Positions 15,001 to 21,000 of a stretch of DNA of 64,000 bases are shown here, one piece after another; within the stretch, counting starts at the first letter, position 1, and each line of letters opens with the position of its first letter. The stretch covers positions 85,237 through 149,236 of the forward strand of contig JAQTLZ010000003.1 of NCBI GenBank assembly GCA_028714635.1, given 5' to 3'. Source of the stretch: Minisyncoccota bacterium (GTDB lineage Bacteria; Patescibacteriota; Minisyncoccia; Phycocordibacterales; JAQTLZ01). The position numbers are program-made.

Positions 15001-18000
15001 AGCTGTCTTAACAGAATGCACTTTTCCATGAGAGGTATGCAGAATAGCGAGAGCTTCAGTATTCTCATATATCTCCACGCCAAGTTTTTTCGCACGCTCC
15101 AGTAGCGCGCCGATAAATTTCAGGGGATGAAATTTTGCCTGGCCTTCCAGTAAGAGGTATCCTTCATTTTTAAATCCAAGTTCATTCTCTTCTTTCCCAA
15201 CAAAAGAGGCTTCTCTTCCGAGAGTCTTCAGCACTCGCAATTCTTCCTTGAGCAGATTCCTTTCTTTTGCTGTGGTGGCATACATGCGATTTTCACAGCG
15301 GGTAAAATCGCAATCAATCTTTTCATCACGAATGATGGATTCGATAAGGAGAATAGCTTCCTCGTGAGAATTGAGAATAATGCTTGCAGGAATCGTCCCC
15401 AGACCCTTTACAAGCTCTGAGGGTCTTGTATCTAAAGATTCAGTGATAAAAGCGGTTGTAACTCCGGTAGCGCCGAATCCTATCCGATCTTTCTCAAGAA
15501 GCACCACCTTTTTGCCTTCCTTTGCCAGAAGATAGGCAGATAAAACGCCAGAAATTCCTCCGCCGATGACTACGACGTCAGCTTGAGTGTCTTCTTTAAG
15601 CGTGGGATACGCTTTGAGCGTATGATCCTCATCCCAAGTGACGACATCGCTCACATTTTTATATTCTCTCTTCATACTTTAAAAAAACGTACGAGAAAGC
15701 TGTTCATTACAAAAGAACAAAATTACAACACTAAAAAGCATCTGGCACTATAGTGCCAGATGCTTTTCTCTTTTTTCATCTGTATTTTTGTTTATCCGTG
15801 CACTTTCGATTCAAACATTTTCATCGCCTCTTCATCTGACATCCCCATTTCCCTCATCTTTTCAGCATGAGCTTCTCTCATGTGTTTCATCATTTTTCCA
15901 GCCACTTCTTTCGTAGAATTTCCCGTTGCTTCAAAATGACAGTCCGTCTCGGGATCAAGATCCTTGCACGCAAGTTTCATCATGGTAGTTTTTAGCTTAA
16001 AGGCTGATAAAGTTCCTCGGGGCAAGCCCCGAGGTATTTGGGGAGCTCATTCCATTCGCTCTTTTCTCCGCGGCACGCCGCGGAGTATTGAACTATTTTC
16101 CGACTTCGACTCGGACGCCGTGAATGAGATTACTCATTCACGCGTCTCTCGCTCGTCGTAATAGACGACCACAAAACTCTTCGGTAAAGAATTAATGATT
16201 TTGTGTTTGCTGATAACAAGCAACATCATACTGCGACACCGCATGGGTGCTGTGAGAATGTTCTGCCGATGCTGAACCATCACTTCCTGCATACACAGTC
16301 TCTGCGTGCGCAAAACCGCCACTGCTAAATCCTTTCGGTGCCATTGTGGCATTTTCTTCTCCACATTCAGCCCCAGGTTGTCCCGTACCGGATGGATTTG
16401 GAGCTGCTAACACTAACGTCACCGCGATGAGAGATCCAGCAATAGAGAAACCAACAGCTGTGCCAAGAGTAGTGAGGAGTTTTTTTGTTTTCATATTTTT
16501 AAAATAAATTAAATTCGCGGATAATCCCGACCTTTGTTATACAGACGCCGGTTCTTATCTTTCGTGACATTTTTCAAAAAAATCGACACAAAAATAAAAG
16601 AGTCGCAACTCTCTCAAGAAGAAAATCATTTTAAATCCAAACTTTTTCTCACCGAATTCCAGTGTCGCAGGAAATATCCACCCCACTCTTGACTGGTGCA
16701 TTCACTGAAACCTTAACAGCGGGGCATCTTGGATAAGGATTCCCGCCGACCGCTTGAAGTGTAAAATCGCCGTACGGAAGTGAAAGATTGAAACGTCCAT
16801 CGGTGCCGGTTCGCACAATCGTCAAGGTATCTGTTCCAGCCGAATTTTTGACCTCTACTGTAGTTTGGTAAGGTTTTGGAGCACAAGCTGGATCCGGCGG
16901 AATCCTCTCGACAGGACAAACGGGAGAAAGTGTAACAGTACCGCTCACTATCCCTTCTCTTTTCTCCATACATACTCCGCCGACATCACCAAAAGGTAAG
17001 TGTGAGCCGGGTTCCGGAGCGCAGTAAAGAGTCTCCGCGCACACAGGAGGATTCGATGTATTTCCTCCGCAGTGCTCTCCGAGATCTGCGATCTTCAACG
17101 TATCAACGTGAAAAACGATTCTATACTGGCTCGGCAGGATTTGTATTTTGCTATTTTTGTCTGGTGTAACAGAAGTAATTGATACTTTATAGAGAGCAAA
17201 AAGAGTCGGGATATCAGCCAAAGTCATTGTTACTGTTGTTGAATTCAAGCTATCTCCAATCGTCACATTGACTCGAATTCTGCCAGCCTGGATACACTGG
17301 ACATCAACCGGACATCGGCTATCCTCAATAATTGAGTTCGGAGTGATGGTTAGCTCCCCAAGGGTTCCTTTTTGTCCTAGGGCAAGTGTTAAGTTGCCAG
17401 TTACTGGCGGAGGTACCGGAGTGCCCGGACATTTTGCAAATTCACAACTCGGCGCGATTCTTCCCACATAACTTCCGTCAGGACAAAGCTTAGCGTCCTG
17501 CGTGCAGAAAACGCCGGTTTCAGTTGATGTCGGACTTGGTGTAGGATTCGGAATCCCGCTTATCTTCGGCCAGAAAAGAAAAACTGCTCCAATAATGATG
17601 AGAAAGATAAGTATCGTGATTGTAAGAGGGCTTTTCATAAGACAAACTATTTTTTAGTAAAAAGTTCCGAAGCTTTCATTTTAATCACCAAGAAAAGGTA
17701 AATGATATCGAGAATACCCGCTGTATTCACGAGAAGAAGTATCACAAACCACCATTCCTGTTCGCGTCGTCCCGAATGCCAAAGCGCAAGTCCTTTCCAA
17801 AATATGCTCCAGAGGGCAAGAAGGATCAATGCTGGTCCAAATGGACGAATCCAATTCAAACCTCCCAAACCCATTCCATAGTTGAAGTTATACATATTCT
17901 TATTCTAATATGCCGTACAGACAGGGAGAAGCTTACAAAAATCTACTGTGTATAAACAATGAATCCTCTGCCGAAGATGTGAACCGGCAGAGGATTGGTG

Positions 18001-21000
18001 CATAAAGAACACGCTACTTCGGCTGACAGCGCTTGAAACGTAATGCGCGCCAACTACCCGTCTTAGCCTTGGTGGGCTTTTACTCCGCCAACTAGCTGGT
18101 AGGGCGAGAACCCGAAAGTGGCTTGCATGCAAGCCACAGTGGAAATGGTATCCTCGTATACTCGAAGCAACACCATCGCCGCCGGAGCGAGCAATGAGCA
18201 CCAAAGTTATCCTAGTCTTTGGAAAAGTTTAATGCAAGTTTGACTTCCCTTTTCAGACGGAATAGGATTGAAAACGGTTGGGCCCATTGTGGTGTCCCAT
18301 TCGATTCAGTTCAACAACGTTACAGCGGAGAATACTCATGTCCCGTTTGCCGAAACAACGAAAACCGGTTGCAGTCATGCCGGTAGTCTATTTTATACCG
18401 CGCGCCCCGCTCAACACGAGGAACTGGTGCAGGTTGGGCGATGTCCTTGCGCTCGCCACCCACATCATGCGCGAAGTACATGGGCACGATTTCACGCCGA
18501 CACCCACCGACCTTGTAAAACGCTTCGTCCTGTTGGTGCGGAAAAATAAAGCCCCGACAGGTGGGAAAAGAAAAAGATTCTTCCGCTACTCCCCCGATGG
18601 TAAATCGATACGGTGGCCGGAAGTCCCTCCGGGTAAATGCAGTTGGCCTGAAATCCGTGTGCGATGTGGGGTAAACACCTACATCACGGAAGAATTTGCG
18701 CATGACATCCTCGACGCCATTCTAGAGGGAATGGACGAGGTAGGACAATGGGGCAAGAAAATCTTGATGGTTGGACCCAAGAAGGATCGGGTCAAAGATG
18801 TGACAAAAAGACCTTGAGGTTTGGGTTTTCAGAAGAAGAAACGGGATCGAGAGATTCCGTTTTTTATTTATCTTCATTTCTGTCTCCAAAGAAGGAAAAA
18901 ATTCAAAACAAGGAGAATGAGGAGCGAGCCGAGTGCAAAAAGCTCGAGGCGACCAGTCTGGCGAGAACCCTCATCGATGCCGTTCCACAGAATCCAAAGG
19001 AAAAAGAGAGCATTTCCGAGAAGCGCCAGGTTTCTAAGATTTTTAAGCATACATTATCCGAGCAAGTCTCGAAGACGTGGATACTTGGAACAAATTGAGA
19101 GACCGGAGAACCAATGTTGGAGGCCAAATGCTCGTCCAGCGTTGTGATACGCAAGCACAAGAAGTCCCGTAGCATAAATGATATGGTCATCAACAATGAG
19201 TGAATGTGCGTCCGGGTGAATGATGCCAAGCGGAAGCCAATAGAGAATCATAAGAAGCGCTCCTAATTTCCCCGAGAGGCGTATCCCAATTCCAAGAATG
19301 AGAGAAACGCCGAGAAGCGTCAATCCCCACACGTTTACAAAATTTACAATCGGTAAAATTCCCGGAGTGGCGAGCCAATGATAAAACCCGACAAAAGTCT
19401 TCGCTCCGGCAAGATATCCACCGGCTGAAAAATTCGGGTCAAGGAGATGAGTAATTCCCGCGTACAAAAACATCCATCCCATCGTCACGCGGAGAAGAAA
19501 AAGGGAGAGTTTATGAAAGTGTGTCATAAGTTTATTATACCACTCGCACGCTACAAACTTATGCACAGGAGGGACCAGATTACATATCCGGAGTCTCGGC
19601 CCAGGTTTTCATAAAGTCACTGCTCCACTTCACCATCATTGGGTCGTCCTTCGGCATCTTTTTAACATTTGCCGCCATTTTAGGGTGAACTTTTTCCAGG
19701 TGCTTCATCCCATTTACCATCATCTCCTCCGGAGTTGAGCCTGTTATGGGTTCATCACACTCACCTCCCATCGCTCTGCATGTTATTGTTTTCATGGTTT
19801 TTATTATTAGCTTCTATTGCTACATTTTAGCACGTCTCTTTTTGATAAGAAGGGAGGGTTTGAGAAAGAAATGAGTAGGGGAAGGCCAATTCACTGAACC
19901 AGACCATTCACGAATTTCCGTGTTGATGCACCAAAGAATCCTGTGCCGTGGGAAAGTCCTTGCGGGATAAGAATGTCAGGTGCGTGCGCCTCTTGGAACT
20001 TCTTGAGTGCCTCTTTTGTTTTTGCCCCAAAAAAGTTCGTCTCGTGACCTAGAGAGCCGAGACCGGTCAAAGCAAGAGGAAAGCCGTGGGTGTTAAGAAA
20101 AACTTGGAGAGCTTTCACATCTGGACCAGAGAAGCCCACACGGAGAGGGCGGGTGAAGAAAGAAGCTCTAGCGGGAACAGAAGGGGCAGAAGCTGGCCCA
20201 ACAGCAGAATCGGATGAGGCTGGAGGCGGCGTTAGAGAAATTGCAGGAGCGAATTGTTGGATTCGGGCAACTGAAGCTCCTCCGCCACCAGAGTGGTGGT
20301 GAGTTGGTGAAGGGGTGGGCGTAGGCGTAGGAGGTGGCGGGGTGTATGCAGGAATAGTGACCGTGACATTGGAAACAGAATAGGTGTCAAAATCGGGATC
20401 AATGGATGAAGCAGCGTGTGTGATCGTACCGGTCAGAATATCACTGGCGAGATTATCTTGAATAGCTGTTACCGTCACTGTTTGAGGAGTGAGATAATTG
20501 GCTGACGTGAAAGTAAGCGTCGAAGAAGAAACTGTCTCGTAACTGTCTGGAGATATGGTGACCACAACATCATCGGTAGGCTCCTTATTGACCACCATGA
20601 CATTATAGGTGGCCGAGCTTCCTTTCTCTACGGTGAGGGCAGTTGGGGCAATATCTATCGCTGGCTGTTGCGCAAATTTTTGGATGCGGTTGTTAAAAGT
20701 ATCCATCACGTAGATATTTTCGGACGAATCGAGACCAACATCGGTGGGAGAAGAGAAGGCACCCTCACCACTTCCACCGCTACCGAACTTGCTTAGGTAA
20801 TTGCCGGAAGAGTCAAACTTCTGGATGCGATTATTATTTGCATCAACCACATAAATATTTCCTGTTGTTGTCGAGACAGCAATACCAAATGGGTAGTTGA
20901 ACTGACCATTGCCGGAACCGGAGACCCCAAATTGGCCAATAAAAGCCGGTGCGGGACTAAATTCTTGAACACGGCTGTTTCCTGGATCAGTTATAAATAT

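What the first reader, a model, noticed from the sequence alone, without database searches (positions are those of the whole stretch)
17900..18820. GC-rich island holding an unidentified structured RNA and an orphan basic ORF
About 0.9 kb at ~55% GC in a ~42% GC genome. The first ~300 nt carry a perfect 12-bp hairpin and segments resembling the RNase P RNA P10-P12 region and the CCGGAGCGAGCAA region on the plus strand. I could not find the universal P4 GGAAAGUCC motif, so tmRNA, 6S RNA or a novel RNA remain possible. The rest encodes a 160-aa basic Arg/Pro/Trp-rich protein with no recognisable motif. This is either a housekeeping ncRNA that gene callers would miss or a small foreign insertion.
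Basis: partly seen in the sequence, partly recalled or inferred. Interest (0 to 1): 0.55.

Follow-up and report, generated by a model that had tools for sequence, protein, structure and literature searches.

The report
16S rRNA scrap beside imported gene
The "unidentified structured RNA" is a short stray copy of two helices of 16S ribosomal RNA on the opposite strand. It sits next to a horizontally acquired gene of a rare, uncharacterised protein family, inside a 1.2-kb strain-specific patch, so the finding is a curiosity and not a missed housekeeping RNA.

Summary
The sequence features are real, but the numbers are softer than reported. GC is 50.4% against a 43.7% window, not 55% against 42%.

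**The RNA.** It is not RNase P, tmRNA, 6S or SRP. Rfam gives none of these at E<=10, and ARAGORN finds no tmRNA. On the minus strand, 18014-18165 matches 16S rRNA helices 11-12. Rfam SSU gives 28.4 bits, E 1e-6, and 51 of 54 bases match true 16S genes. There is no rRNA gene in the window. Two of the three core substitutions break helix pairs, which suggests decay.

**The ORF.** The 159-aa ORF is not an orphan. 44 other protein clusters match it. AlphaFold gives pLDDT 91.6, and no fold match turns up in PDB or BFVD. It has its own promoter, 5' hairpin and terminator. Its codon use is atypical for the host (GC3 0.59 against 0.43).

**The patch.** 17897-19053 is missing from two related Pacebacteria genomes and identical in a second assembly. 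It lies at a rearrangement breakpoint.

**Best reading.** A strain-specific insertion carrying an imported accessory gene plus an rRNA-derived relic.

**Less likely.** A minus-strand small RNA or leader that mimics 16S h11-h12.

The parts
17897..19053 (.). Lineage-specific patch (1157 nt) between the DUF5652 start codon and the DoxX stop codon
   Evidence: blastn of window 15500-20000 against L090 (GCA_028711065.1): homology ends at 17896 and resumes at 19054. Identical in the independent assembly L092.
18014..18165 (-). 16S rRNA-derived segment: helices 11-12, plus a weaker match to the h5/h7 strands
   Evidence: Rfam SSU_rRNA_bacteria at 18019-18165 (-), model positions 106-311, 28.4 bits (gathering score 50), E 1.1e-6. 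My own h11-h12 model R1 hits 18014-18119 (-) at 74.5 bits, but this sequence was in its training set.
18048..18113 (-). Core of the 16S-like segment (helix 11), the only part with clear sequence identity to true 16S genes
   Evidence: 88% over 57 nt to the Levybacteria 16S gene in L050, E 9e-14. Up to 93% to metagenomic 16S genes. 51/54 identical to L105. 2 of 16 h11 pairs are broken.
18118..18137 (.). Perfect 20-nt palindrome GTGGCTTGCATGCAAGCCAC (10+10, no spacer)
   Evidence: the repeat finder pair I7, 100% complementary. No exact match in viral contigs.
17951..17996 (-). Perfect 12-bp hairpin (17962-17996) followed on the minus strand by CAUUGUUUAU. Terminator-like for a minus-strand transcript.
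   Evidence: Pair I3. Sequence read. The terminator scan does not list it because its 11-nt loop exceeds the scan's 8-nt limit. The terminator role is an inference.
18209..18237 (-). Promoter-like TTGCAT-17-TAGGAT facing the 16S-like segment and the DUF5652 gene
   Evidence: Regex scan. TTGNNN-17-TAsGAT occurs only 3 times in the 64-kb window on both strands, and two of these are this site and its back-to-back neighbour at 18240. No expression data.
18240..18268 (+). Promoter-like TTGACT-17-TAGGAT of the ORF cassette
   Evidence: Promoter scan, 9 of 12 matches. The sister genome L004 has TTGACT-17-TACGAT at the same place.
18260..18293 (+). Conserved 5'-UTR element (GGTTGGGCCCATTGTGGTGTCCCAT) able to form a 5'-terminal stem-loop
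   Evidence: 88% identity over 34 nt to L004/L005, although the proteins are only 45-46% identical.
18338..18817 (+). 159-aa protein gene (PHS53_02850), member of a rare uncharacterised family
   Evidence: phmmer finds 45 clusters. Alignment A1 keeps M1 and the W30-C31 and F82-R83-Y84-S85-x-D87-G88 motifs. AlphaFold pLDDT 91.6, pTM 0.87. No Foldseek match in PDB or BFVD. GC3 and codon use are atypical.
18836..18865 (+). Intrinsic terminator of the ORF cassette
   Evidence: Terminator scan: 13 pairs, then TTTTTT. An analogous terminator follows the L004 homologue.
18874..19050 (-). 58-aa hydrophobic ORF just downstream of DoxX, inside the unique patch
   Evidence: ORF list. Called as a gene in assembly L092, locus positions 3589-3765. 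Not homologous to L090 at nucleotide level.
17647..17895 (-). Flanking gene: DUF5652 small membrane protein (conserved backbone)
   Evidence: Pfam PF18893, E 1.4e-22. 91% aa identity to L090.
19054..19566 (-). Flanking gene: DoxX-family protein, at a different position from its place in L090
   Evidence: Pfam PF07681. 93% aa identity to the L090 DoxX, which there lies downstream of the 326-aa gene.

Best explanation
The window comes from a Candidatus Pacebacteria (CPR/Patescibacteria) genome. Positions 17897-19053 are a strain-specific patch at a rearrangement breakpoint. Three things sit in it.

1. **A self-contained, horizontally acquired gene cassette (about 18231-18866, + strand).** It has a promoter, a 5' stem-loop, a Shine-Dalgarno sequence, a 159-aa ORF and an intrinsic terminator. 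The protein is a small cytoplasmic alpha/beta protein of a rare, uncharacterised family with no detectable structural relative.
2. **A 58-aa membrane ORF behind DoxX.**
3. **About 334 nt of non-coding DNA (17897-18230).** Its centre, read on the minus strand, is a copy of 16S rRNA helices 11-12 that belongs to no rRNA gene. Two perfect inverted repeats flank it.

I read the rRNA-like piece as rDNA-derived filler, a relic captured when the cassette was joined to the DUF5652 block. It is now decaying as an rRNA structure. It is probably still transcribed on the minus strand, because the insertion replaced the native upstream region of the DUF5652-329aa operon and a promoter-like site faces that way.

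**Shown:** the 16S origin and the strand, the absence of RNase P/tmRNA/6S/SRP, the reality and rarity of the protein family, the insertion boundaries and the atypical codon use.

**Inferred:** the capture mechanism, the lack of function of the rRNA piece, transcription, and the protein's role. My guess for the protein is an accessory, strain-variable function.
For: **16S origin and strand**
- blastn to the 16S gene in L050 gives 88% over 57 nt, E 9e-14. Rfam annotates that L050 region as SSU rRNA at 338 bits.
- Rfam SSU hits window 18019-18165 (-) at E 1.1e-6.
- All 120 metagenomic loci carrying the h11 24-mer align only to window 18048-18131, at up to 93% identity.
- No other rRNA-like piece exists in the window.

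**Decay**
- 2 of the 3 substitutions in the 54-nt core break h11 pairs (U-A to C.A, G-C to A.C). True 16S genes have 0-1 broken pairs of 24.
- A nearly invariant base of the h11 loop is changed.
- The universally conserved h12 loop GAGAGG is replaced.

**Not a conserved RNA gene**
- Absent from L090 and L004, genomes whose proteins are 80-94% identical to the window's.
- Model R1 finds no other isolated copy in 854 kb of mostly CPR DNA.

**Not an assembly artefact**
- L092 (GCA_028711105.1) is 8523/8524 identical and carries the whole patch.

**Breakpoint**
- L090 order is DUF1059-DUF5652-326aa-64aa-DoxX-(113aa,96aa)-100aa.
- Window order is DUF1059-DoxX-58aa-[ORF]-[fragment]-DUF5652-329aa-100aa.

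**The ORF is real and imported**
- Searches support this.
- The cassette sits at a different locus in L004 with only 45% protein identity, yet 88% identity in the promoter/5'-UTR.
Against: - The non-coding stretch looks more organised than random filler. It folds with z about -3.3 to -3.5.
- It holds two perfect inverted repeats.
- On the minus strand it is bracketed by a promoter-like TTGCAT-17-TAGGAT and a terminator-like hairpin. This promoter form occurs only 3 times in the window.
- Conservation is uneven. The h11 core is 94% identical to true 16S, while everything next to it is unrecognisable, even though the following 16S region is normally more conserved.
- The outer h12 stem still pairs.
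- A second isolated h11-h12 copy exists (L173), with 23 of 24 pairs intact and its own strong terminator, upstream of secDF.
- The host's own 16S was not available, so the age and source of the copy are unknown.
- No expression data exist.
Confidence: 0.55

Rival explanations
1. A functional minus-strand small RNA of about 250 nt, or a long 5' leader of the DUF5652-329aa operon, that mimics 16S rRNA helices 11-12. It would be transcribed from TTGCAT-17-TAGGAT (18237-18209) and end, or attenuate, at the 12-bp hairpin (17996-17962). It would act as a decoy or operator for a protein that normally recognises this part of the 30S 5' domain. From my own knowledge, h7/h11 is the uS17 site, with bS20 and bS16 nearby. 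This would be analogous to the rRNA-mimicking leaders of ribosomal-protein operons.
For: - Promoter-like and terminator-like signals lie in the right orientation. The promoter form is rare in the window.
- The fold z-score is -3.3 on the minus strand.
- Rfam aligns the stretch as an enclosed h5-h7-h11-h12 sub-domain, with the interior helices replaced by one perfect hairpin.
- The h11 core is 94% identical to real 16S while the flanks are unrelated.
- L173 shows a second isolated h11-h12, with compensatory changes in h12 and a strong terminator.
Against: - Absent from the two nearest genomes.
- Flanks of the window copy and of L173 are no more alike than shuffles (p 0.27 and 0.90).
- The shared TAAAAGCCCACC is also present in 20 true 16S genes.
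- 2 of 3 core substitutions break pairs, and conserved loop bases are lost.
- No ribosomal-protein or assembly gene is nearby.
- No transcription data.
Confidence: 0.2
2. The stretch works on the plus strand. It would be either a long structured 5' UTR of the ORF or an independent RNA. Because it carries the reverse complement of h11, such an RNA would be antisense to 16S rRNA.
For: - Same orientation as the ORF.
- A -10-like TATAAA at 17951-17956 precedes the 12-bp hairpin.
- The plus strand also folds well, z -3.5.
- Two G-U pairs in the h11-complement helix are tolerated on this strand.
Against: - There is no acceptable -35 element upstream of TATAAA (read), and the promoter scan finds no site there.
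- The ORF has its own promoter at 18240-18268. It is conserved in L004, where the upstream 300 nt do not exist.
- The Rfam SSU match and the helix architecture are on the minus strand.
Confidence: 0.08
3. A divergent housekeeping RNA (RNase P RNA, tmRNA, 6S or SRP RNA) that the models miss.
For: Only the general appearance supports it: a GC-rich, well-folding 300 nt in an intergenic region.
Against: - No Rfam match to any of these families at E<=10 in two scans.
- No tmRNA by ARAGORN.
- The only significant family is SSU rRNA, on the other strand.
- The locus is missing from close relatives, which a housekeeping gene at a syntenic site would not be.
Confidence: 0.02
4. Assembly chimera: a metagenomic mis-join through reads of a conserved 16S region.
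For: 16S-like sequence is a classic cause of mis-assembly in MAGs. L173 ends 97 nt from its 16S-like segment.
Against: - A second assembly (GCA_028711105.1) has the same junctions, with 1 mismatch in 8524 nt.
- The 16S-like piece is short, carries its own substitutions and an altered h12, and is flanked on both sides by non-rRNA sequence.
Confidence: 0.03

Closest known systems
Bacterial 16S rRNA (Rfam RF00177), helices 11-12 of the 5' domain
   Same: 51 of 54 core bases are identical to true 16S genes. The h11 architecture and the outer h12 stem are retained, and the orientation is consistent.
   Different: - Only about 105-150 nt of the 1533 model positions are present.
- The score is below Rfam's gathering threshold (28.4 against 50).
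- The universal neighbouring regions are absent: the GAGAGG loop, the 338 region and the 27F region.
- 2 h11 pairs are broken.
- No rRNA operon is in the window.
rRNA gene fragments / rRNA pseudogenes (relics of recombination)
   Same: An isolated, partly degraded piece of rDNA outside any rRNA operon, located at a rearrangement breakpoint.
   Different: It is very short, limited to two helices, and embedded between perfect inverted repeats and promoter- and terminator-like signals. I found no literature on such fragments in CPR genomes (one search was uninformative).
rRNA-mimicking leaders of ribosomal-protein operons (for example the S8/spc, S15, L1 and L20 operators; own knowledge)
   Same: This is a 'works like' comparison for the rival reading only: a piece of rRNA structure placed in a 5' leader or small RNA.
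   Different: Known mimics resemble rRNA in structure but hardly in sequence, and they precede the gene of the protein they bind. Here the sequence identity is 94%, and the downstream genes are DUF5652 and a 329-aa secreted-type protein, not ribosomal proteins.
Lineage-restricted accessory ('ORFan-like') gene cassettes in variable genome regions
   Same: - A single gene with its own promoter and terminator.
- Different loci in sister genomes.
- Atypical GC3 and codon use.
- No annotation in Pfam, NCBIfam, PHROGs or PADLOC.
   Different: - It is not a true orphan, since 44 other clusters match it.
- The model is confident, yet nothing in PDB or BFVD matches it.
- No integrase, no flanking repeats and no phage genes are present.

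Membership tests
RNase P RNA (bacterial type A/B) | Match to the Rfam covariance models, including the conserved P4 helix | tested here: not met
   No RNase P hit at gathering score or at E<=10 on 1.5 kb and on 331 nt, both strands.
tmRNA | tRNA-like domain plus tag-peptide reading frame | tested here: not met
   ARAGORN finds only 8 tRNAs in the window. No Rfam tmRNA hit.
6S RNA / SRP RNA | Match to the Rfam models (long hairpin with central bubble; domain IV motif) | tested here: not met
   No hit at E<=10. The predicted fold is multi-branched.
16S rRNA gene (RF00177) | Full-length match at or above the gathering score (50 bits) | tested here: not met
   28.4 bits, model positions 106-311 only. 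No universal 27F, 338, 515 or 1492 motifs anywhere in the window.
16S rRNA-derived sequence (homology, not gene membership) | Significant local similarity to true 16S genes in sequence and structure | tested here: met
   E 9e-14 to the L050 16S gene. E 1.1e-6 to the Rfam SSU model. Up to 93% identity to 120 metagenomic 16S loci. 14 of 16 h11 pairs are kept.
Conserved small-RNA family with a 16S h11-h12 mimic (hypothetical) | Homologues in other genomes that share non-rRNA flanks and show covariation | tested here: inconclusive
   One other isolated copy was found (L173). Its flanks are not significantly similar to the window's. No further copy in 854 kb.
Unnamed 150-190-aa protein family (alignment A1) | Conserved P15, Y18, W30-C31, L59, F63, F82-R83-(Y84-S85)-x-(D87)-G88, G131 | tested here: met
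   The window protein carries all of them and aligns from M1. The closest member is P0002, E 1.8e-26.
Any curated protein family (Pfam, NCBIfam, PHROGs, PADLOC) or solved fold | Profile or structural match | tested here: not met
   Searches give nothing credible. Foldseek best E is 0.23 in PDB and 0.054 in BFVD, with TM<0.3.
Mobile element (IS, MITE, prophage, integron cassette) | Transposase or integrase, terminal inverted repeats or target duplication at the boundaries | tested here: not met
   No such gene in or next to the patch. No repeats at 17897/19053 or at 18231/18866. No phage similarity.

The most novel reading that the evidence does not exclude
The minus-strand transcript is a functional small RNA or leader that presents a near-exact copy of 16S rRNA helices 11-12. 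It would serve as a decoy or operator for a 30S 5'-domain-binding protein, or as bait for an rRNA-targeting factor. Isolated h11-h12 units such as the one upstream of secDF in L173 would then be further members of a so far undescribed class of rRNA-mimic RNAs in Patescibacteria.
Probability: 0.12. Interest if true: 0.7.

Novelty: new member of a known kind. Interest (0 to 1): 0.3.

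Why it matters
**Annotation.** Nothing housekeeping was missed here. GC-rich, well-folding intergenic DNA in a CPR genome can simply be a stray piece of rDNA.

**Mild interest.**
- Isolated 16S helix fragments outside rRNA operons seem rare. Here there was one in 854 kb of mostly CPR DNA, and one among 120 metagenomic matches to the h11 24-mer. They could mark sites of illegitimate recombination. Less likely, they could act as rRNA mimics.
- The neighbouring gene adds a confidently modelled protein family with no match in PDB or BFVD and a strongly conserved 5'-UTR motif in most members. 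That makes it a concrete target for structural or functional work on CPR 'dark matter'.

Tried and rejected
**Searches on the RNA-like stretch**
- Rfam on the whole window at gathering score gave only tRNAs. On 1.5 kb at E<=10 it gave only noise. The SSU hit appeared only when 331 nt were searched alone.
- blastn against phages found nothing.
- E. coli genomes gave six unannotated 50-nt chance matches at E 0.1.
- Viral-contig scans with the palindrome and with the h11 signature gave 0 hits.
- The metagenome scan for the element-specific 20-mer AAGACGGGTAGTTGGCGCGC gave 0 hits.

**Searches on the ORF**
- tblastn against phages found nothing.
- The word-indexed protein search returned only the protein itself.
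- A viral-contig scan with the 5'-UTR motif gave 0 hits.

**Comparative steps that led nowhere**
- The genome-contig scan with the 329-aa neighbour returned only distant relatives (<=47% identity), so it gave no synteny. It did supply L050, whose 16S gene revealed the rRNA homology.
- By eye I first mapped the minus strand to the 16S 5' end (the 27F region and CAUGCAAG). MAFFT and Rfam did not support that register, and I dropped it.
- I took TAAAAGCCCACC to be a signature shared by the window and L173. I dropped this because 20 true 16S genes have it.
- The flank homology between the window and L173 was rejected by a shuffle test.
- The literature search on rRNA fragments and mimics was uninformative.
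- I judged the 11-nt direct repeats at 17817/18778 and at 18103/18960 to be chance, because neither pair coincides with a homology boundary.

Full report
**Setting.** The ORF is annotated in NCBI as PHS53_02850 of a Candidatus Pacebacteria MAG. The neighbouring genes are typical CPR genes: DUF5652 at 17647-17895 (-), a 329-aa protein at 16649-17638 (-), and DoxX at 19054-19566 (-). All neighbours lie on the minus strand. The ORF is the only plus-strand gene.

**Checking the observation.** The 12-bp perfect hairpin (17962-17973 / 17985-17996), a second perfect 20-nt palindrome (18118-18137) and the string CCGGAGCGAGCAA are all present. The stretch folds better than shuffles on both strands, z -3.3 to -3.6. 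GC is 50.4% for 17900-18820 against 43.7% for the window. That is the 98th percentile of 920-nt windows, but it is not 55% against 42%. The ORF is 159 aa with pI 10.2.

**What the RNA-like stretch is not.**
- Rfam at gathering score finds only eight tRNAs in the window.
- At E<=10 on 17600-19100, and again on 17930-18260, there is no RNase P, tmRNA, 6S or SRP match.
- ARAGORN finds no tmRNA.

**What it is.**
- A blastn of 17896-18340 against loci fetched for another purpose hit L050:550-606, 88% over 57 nt, E 9e-14.
- Rfam annotates L050:281-1063 as bacterial SSU rRNA at 338 bits, and the orientation places the window's copy on the minus strand.
- When only 331 nt are searched, Rfam reports SSU_rRNA_bacteria at 18019-18165 (-), model positions 106-311, 28.4 bits, E 1.1e-6. 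That is below the gathering score of 50. The alignment keeps the h5/h7 closing strands, h11 and h12, but the interior helices are replaced by short sequence.
Their similarity to the window is always confined to window 18048-18131, at up to 93%. The core is 51/54 identical to a true 16S gene.
- The universally conserved neighbouring 16S segments are absent. The h12 loop GAGAGG is replaced, and the 338 region is missing.
- No other rRNA-like piece exists in the window.
- So about 105-150 nt are derived from 16S helices (7)-11-12. The rest of 17897-18230 has no recognisable relative.

**Decay or function?**
- In a structural alignment with ten true 16S sequences, the window copy has 2 of 16 h11 pairs broken. 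Two of its three core substitutions cause this (U-A to C.A, G-C to A.C). True genes have 0-1 broken pairs of 24.
- A nearly invariant base of the h11 loop is changed. This looks like relaxed constraint.
- On the other side, the stretch is bracketed on the minus strand by TTGCAT-17-TAGGAT (18237-18209) and by the 12-bp hairpin followed by CAUUGUUUAU.
- The form TTGNNN-17-TAsGAT occurs only three times in 64 kb on both strands. Two of these are this site and the ORF's own promoter, back to back.
- Minus-strand transcription is therefore plausible, either as a separate RNA or as the new leader of the DUF5652 operon.

**A second isolated copy.** Of the 120 loci with the h11 24-mer, one is not inside a 16S gene: L173.
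- Most of the 120 carry the 16S 338-region motif downstream of the match or the 27F motif upstream of it. Rfam confirmed full SSU genes in ten of the eleven ambiguous loci I submitted.
- L173 has only SSU positions 237-308, at 39.3 bits and E 2.9e-10.
- It has 23 of 24 pairs intact, and its h12 sequence differs from the true 16S genes while still pairing.
- A strong terminator follows, and then secD-secF.
- Its flanks are not significantly similar to the window's (p 0.27 and 0.90 against shuffles).
- The apparent shared signature TAAAAGCCCACC also occurs in 20 true 16S genes.
- A covariance model of h11-h12 (R1) found no further isolated copy in 854 kb of mostly CPR DNA.
- A family of rRNA-mimic RNAs is thus neither shown nor excluded.

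**The ORF.**
- The word-indexed search found only the protein itself.
- An exhaustive phmmer search over 1.84 billion representatives found 45 clusters at E<=1e-3, counting the ORF's own cluster, and 10 at E<=1e-10. The proteins are 114-260 aa, mostly 150-190 aa.
- The ten clusters I looked up hold one or two sequences each.
- The alignment starts at M1 of the 159-aa reading. It shows the conserved motifs VMPxVYELP, W-WC, PTPEELVxRFAALVRPN, FRYSxDG and FVPEGWAxDTL.
- Nothing matches in Pfam, NCBIfam, PHROGs, PADLOC or PDB sequences.
- AlphaFold with the family alignment gives pLDDT 91.6 and pTM 0.87, a small alpha/beta protein.
- Foldseek finds no credible match in PDB (best E 0.23) or BFVD (best E 0.054), with TM<0.3.
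- Family pI ranges from 4.7 to 10.2, so basicity is not a family trait.
- Neighbours differ from locus to locus. Two members precede Fur and a ZIP transporter.

**A cassette, and imported.**
- The ORF has a promoter-like TTGACT-17-TAGGAT (18240-18268) and an intrinsic terminator (18836-18865).
- In L004 (GCA_040384425.1) the closest homologue has 45-46% protein identity. It has the same promoter form, a 34-nt 5'-UTR element that is 88% identical, and a terminator. The 300-nt rRNA-like stretch is not there.
- L004's housekeeping proteins are 80-91% identical to the window's, yet the homologue lies at another locus, between DinB and CTP synthase.
- The ORF's GC3 is 0.591 against 0.426 +/- 0.047. 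Its codon-adaptation index is 0.714, below all 31 long host ORFs (0.769 +/- 0.017, minimum 0.723).

**Insertion boundaries.**
- L090 (GCA_028711065.1) has proteins 88-94% identical to the window's. Its gene order is DUF1059-DUF5652-326aa-64aa-DoxX-(113aa,96aa)-100aa-63aa-DAO.
- The window's order is DUF1059-DoxX-58aa-[ORF]-[rRNA-like]-DUF5652-329aa-100aa-63aa-DAO.
- Nucleotide homology stops at 17896 and resumes at 19054.
- The patch therefore lies at a breakpoint where DoxX and the DUF5652 block changed order.
- L092, from a second assembly, is identical apart from one base outside the patch, so this is not a mis-assembly.

**Conclusion.** The finding dissolves into three things:
- an rDNA-derived scrap on the opposite strand, not a housekeeping RNA;
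- an imported accessory gene of a rare, structurally unmatched family, not an orphan;
- a strain-specific rearrangement scar.

I put 0.55 on 'relic plus imported cassette'. I put 0.2 on a functional minus-strand rRNA-mimic RNA or leader, and small weights on the plus-strand, housekeeping and artefact readings.

Noticed in passing
L004:5931-5960, L002:5984-6013 (same in L003), L001:5966-5995, L088:19-48, L089:378-407. Degenerate in window 18305-18337.: Most members of the ORF's protein family carry a nearly invariant 5'-UTR motif, TCCGCTAGAGCCRCAATMTGYGGCAGGAGG, just before the start codon. It folds as YUCC...hairpin...GGAG, so it would sequester the Shine-Dalgarno sequence. It shows one compensatory change and two wobble changes. 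No Rfam family matches it, and there is no hit in viral contigs. The window's own copy lacks it.
   Followed up: partly
L173:71-143 (plus terminator at about 169-225), upstream of secD at 256-1572: A second isolated 16S h11-h12 unit outside any rRNA gene. Rfam matches SSU positions 237-308 only, at 39.3 bits. 23 of 24 pairs are intact. A strong intrinsic terminator follows, then secD-secF. The contig ends 97 nt upstream, so its 5' part is unknown.
   Followed up: partly
window 63680-63767 (+): ARAGORN calls a tRNA-Ser with anticodon ACT, and the loop reads TTACTAA. It lies next to a normal tRNA-Ser(GCT) at 63456-63546 (-). As far as I know, an A34 serine tRNA is unusual in bacteria.
   Followed up: no
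L002:6604-7808, and the JGI contig of P0043 (no DNA held): Two family members (P0044, P0043) are followed on the same strand by a Fur-family regulator and a ZIP metal transporter. This hints at a metal-related context for part of the family.
   Followed up: no
window 18232-18245: The -35 boxes of two divergent promoter-like sites, both with a 17-nt spacer and a TAGGAT -10, lie back to back only 2 nt apart (ATGCAA GT TTGACT). This promoter form occurs only once elsewhere in the 64 kb.
   Followed up: partly
window 17896-28574: About 10.7 kb holding the patch, DoxX, DUF1059, a 948-aa NHL-repeat protein and more. It separates genes (DUF5652 and the GT4 glycosyltransferase) that are only about 1.3 kb apart in the sister genome L004, so this is a variable region.
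   Followed up: partly
window 18103-18113 / 18960-18970 and 17817-17827 / 18778-18788: Two exact 11-nt direct repeats lie within 1.5 kb, where about 0.3 are expected. One pair brackets the ORF cassette, but neither pair coincides with a homology boundary.
   Followed up: no
L050:281-1063: The Levybacteria 16S gene that revealed the homology carries large AT-rich insertions in its 5' domain, in helices h6 and h10. Such insertions are known for CPR rRNA genes.
   Followed up: no
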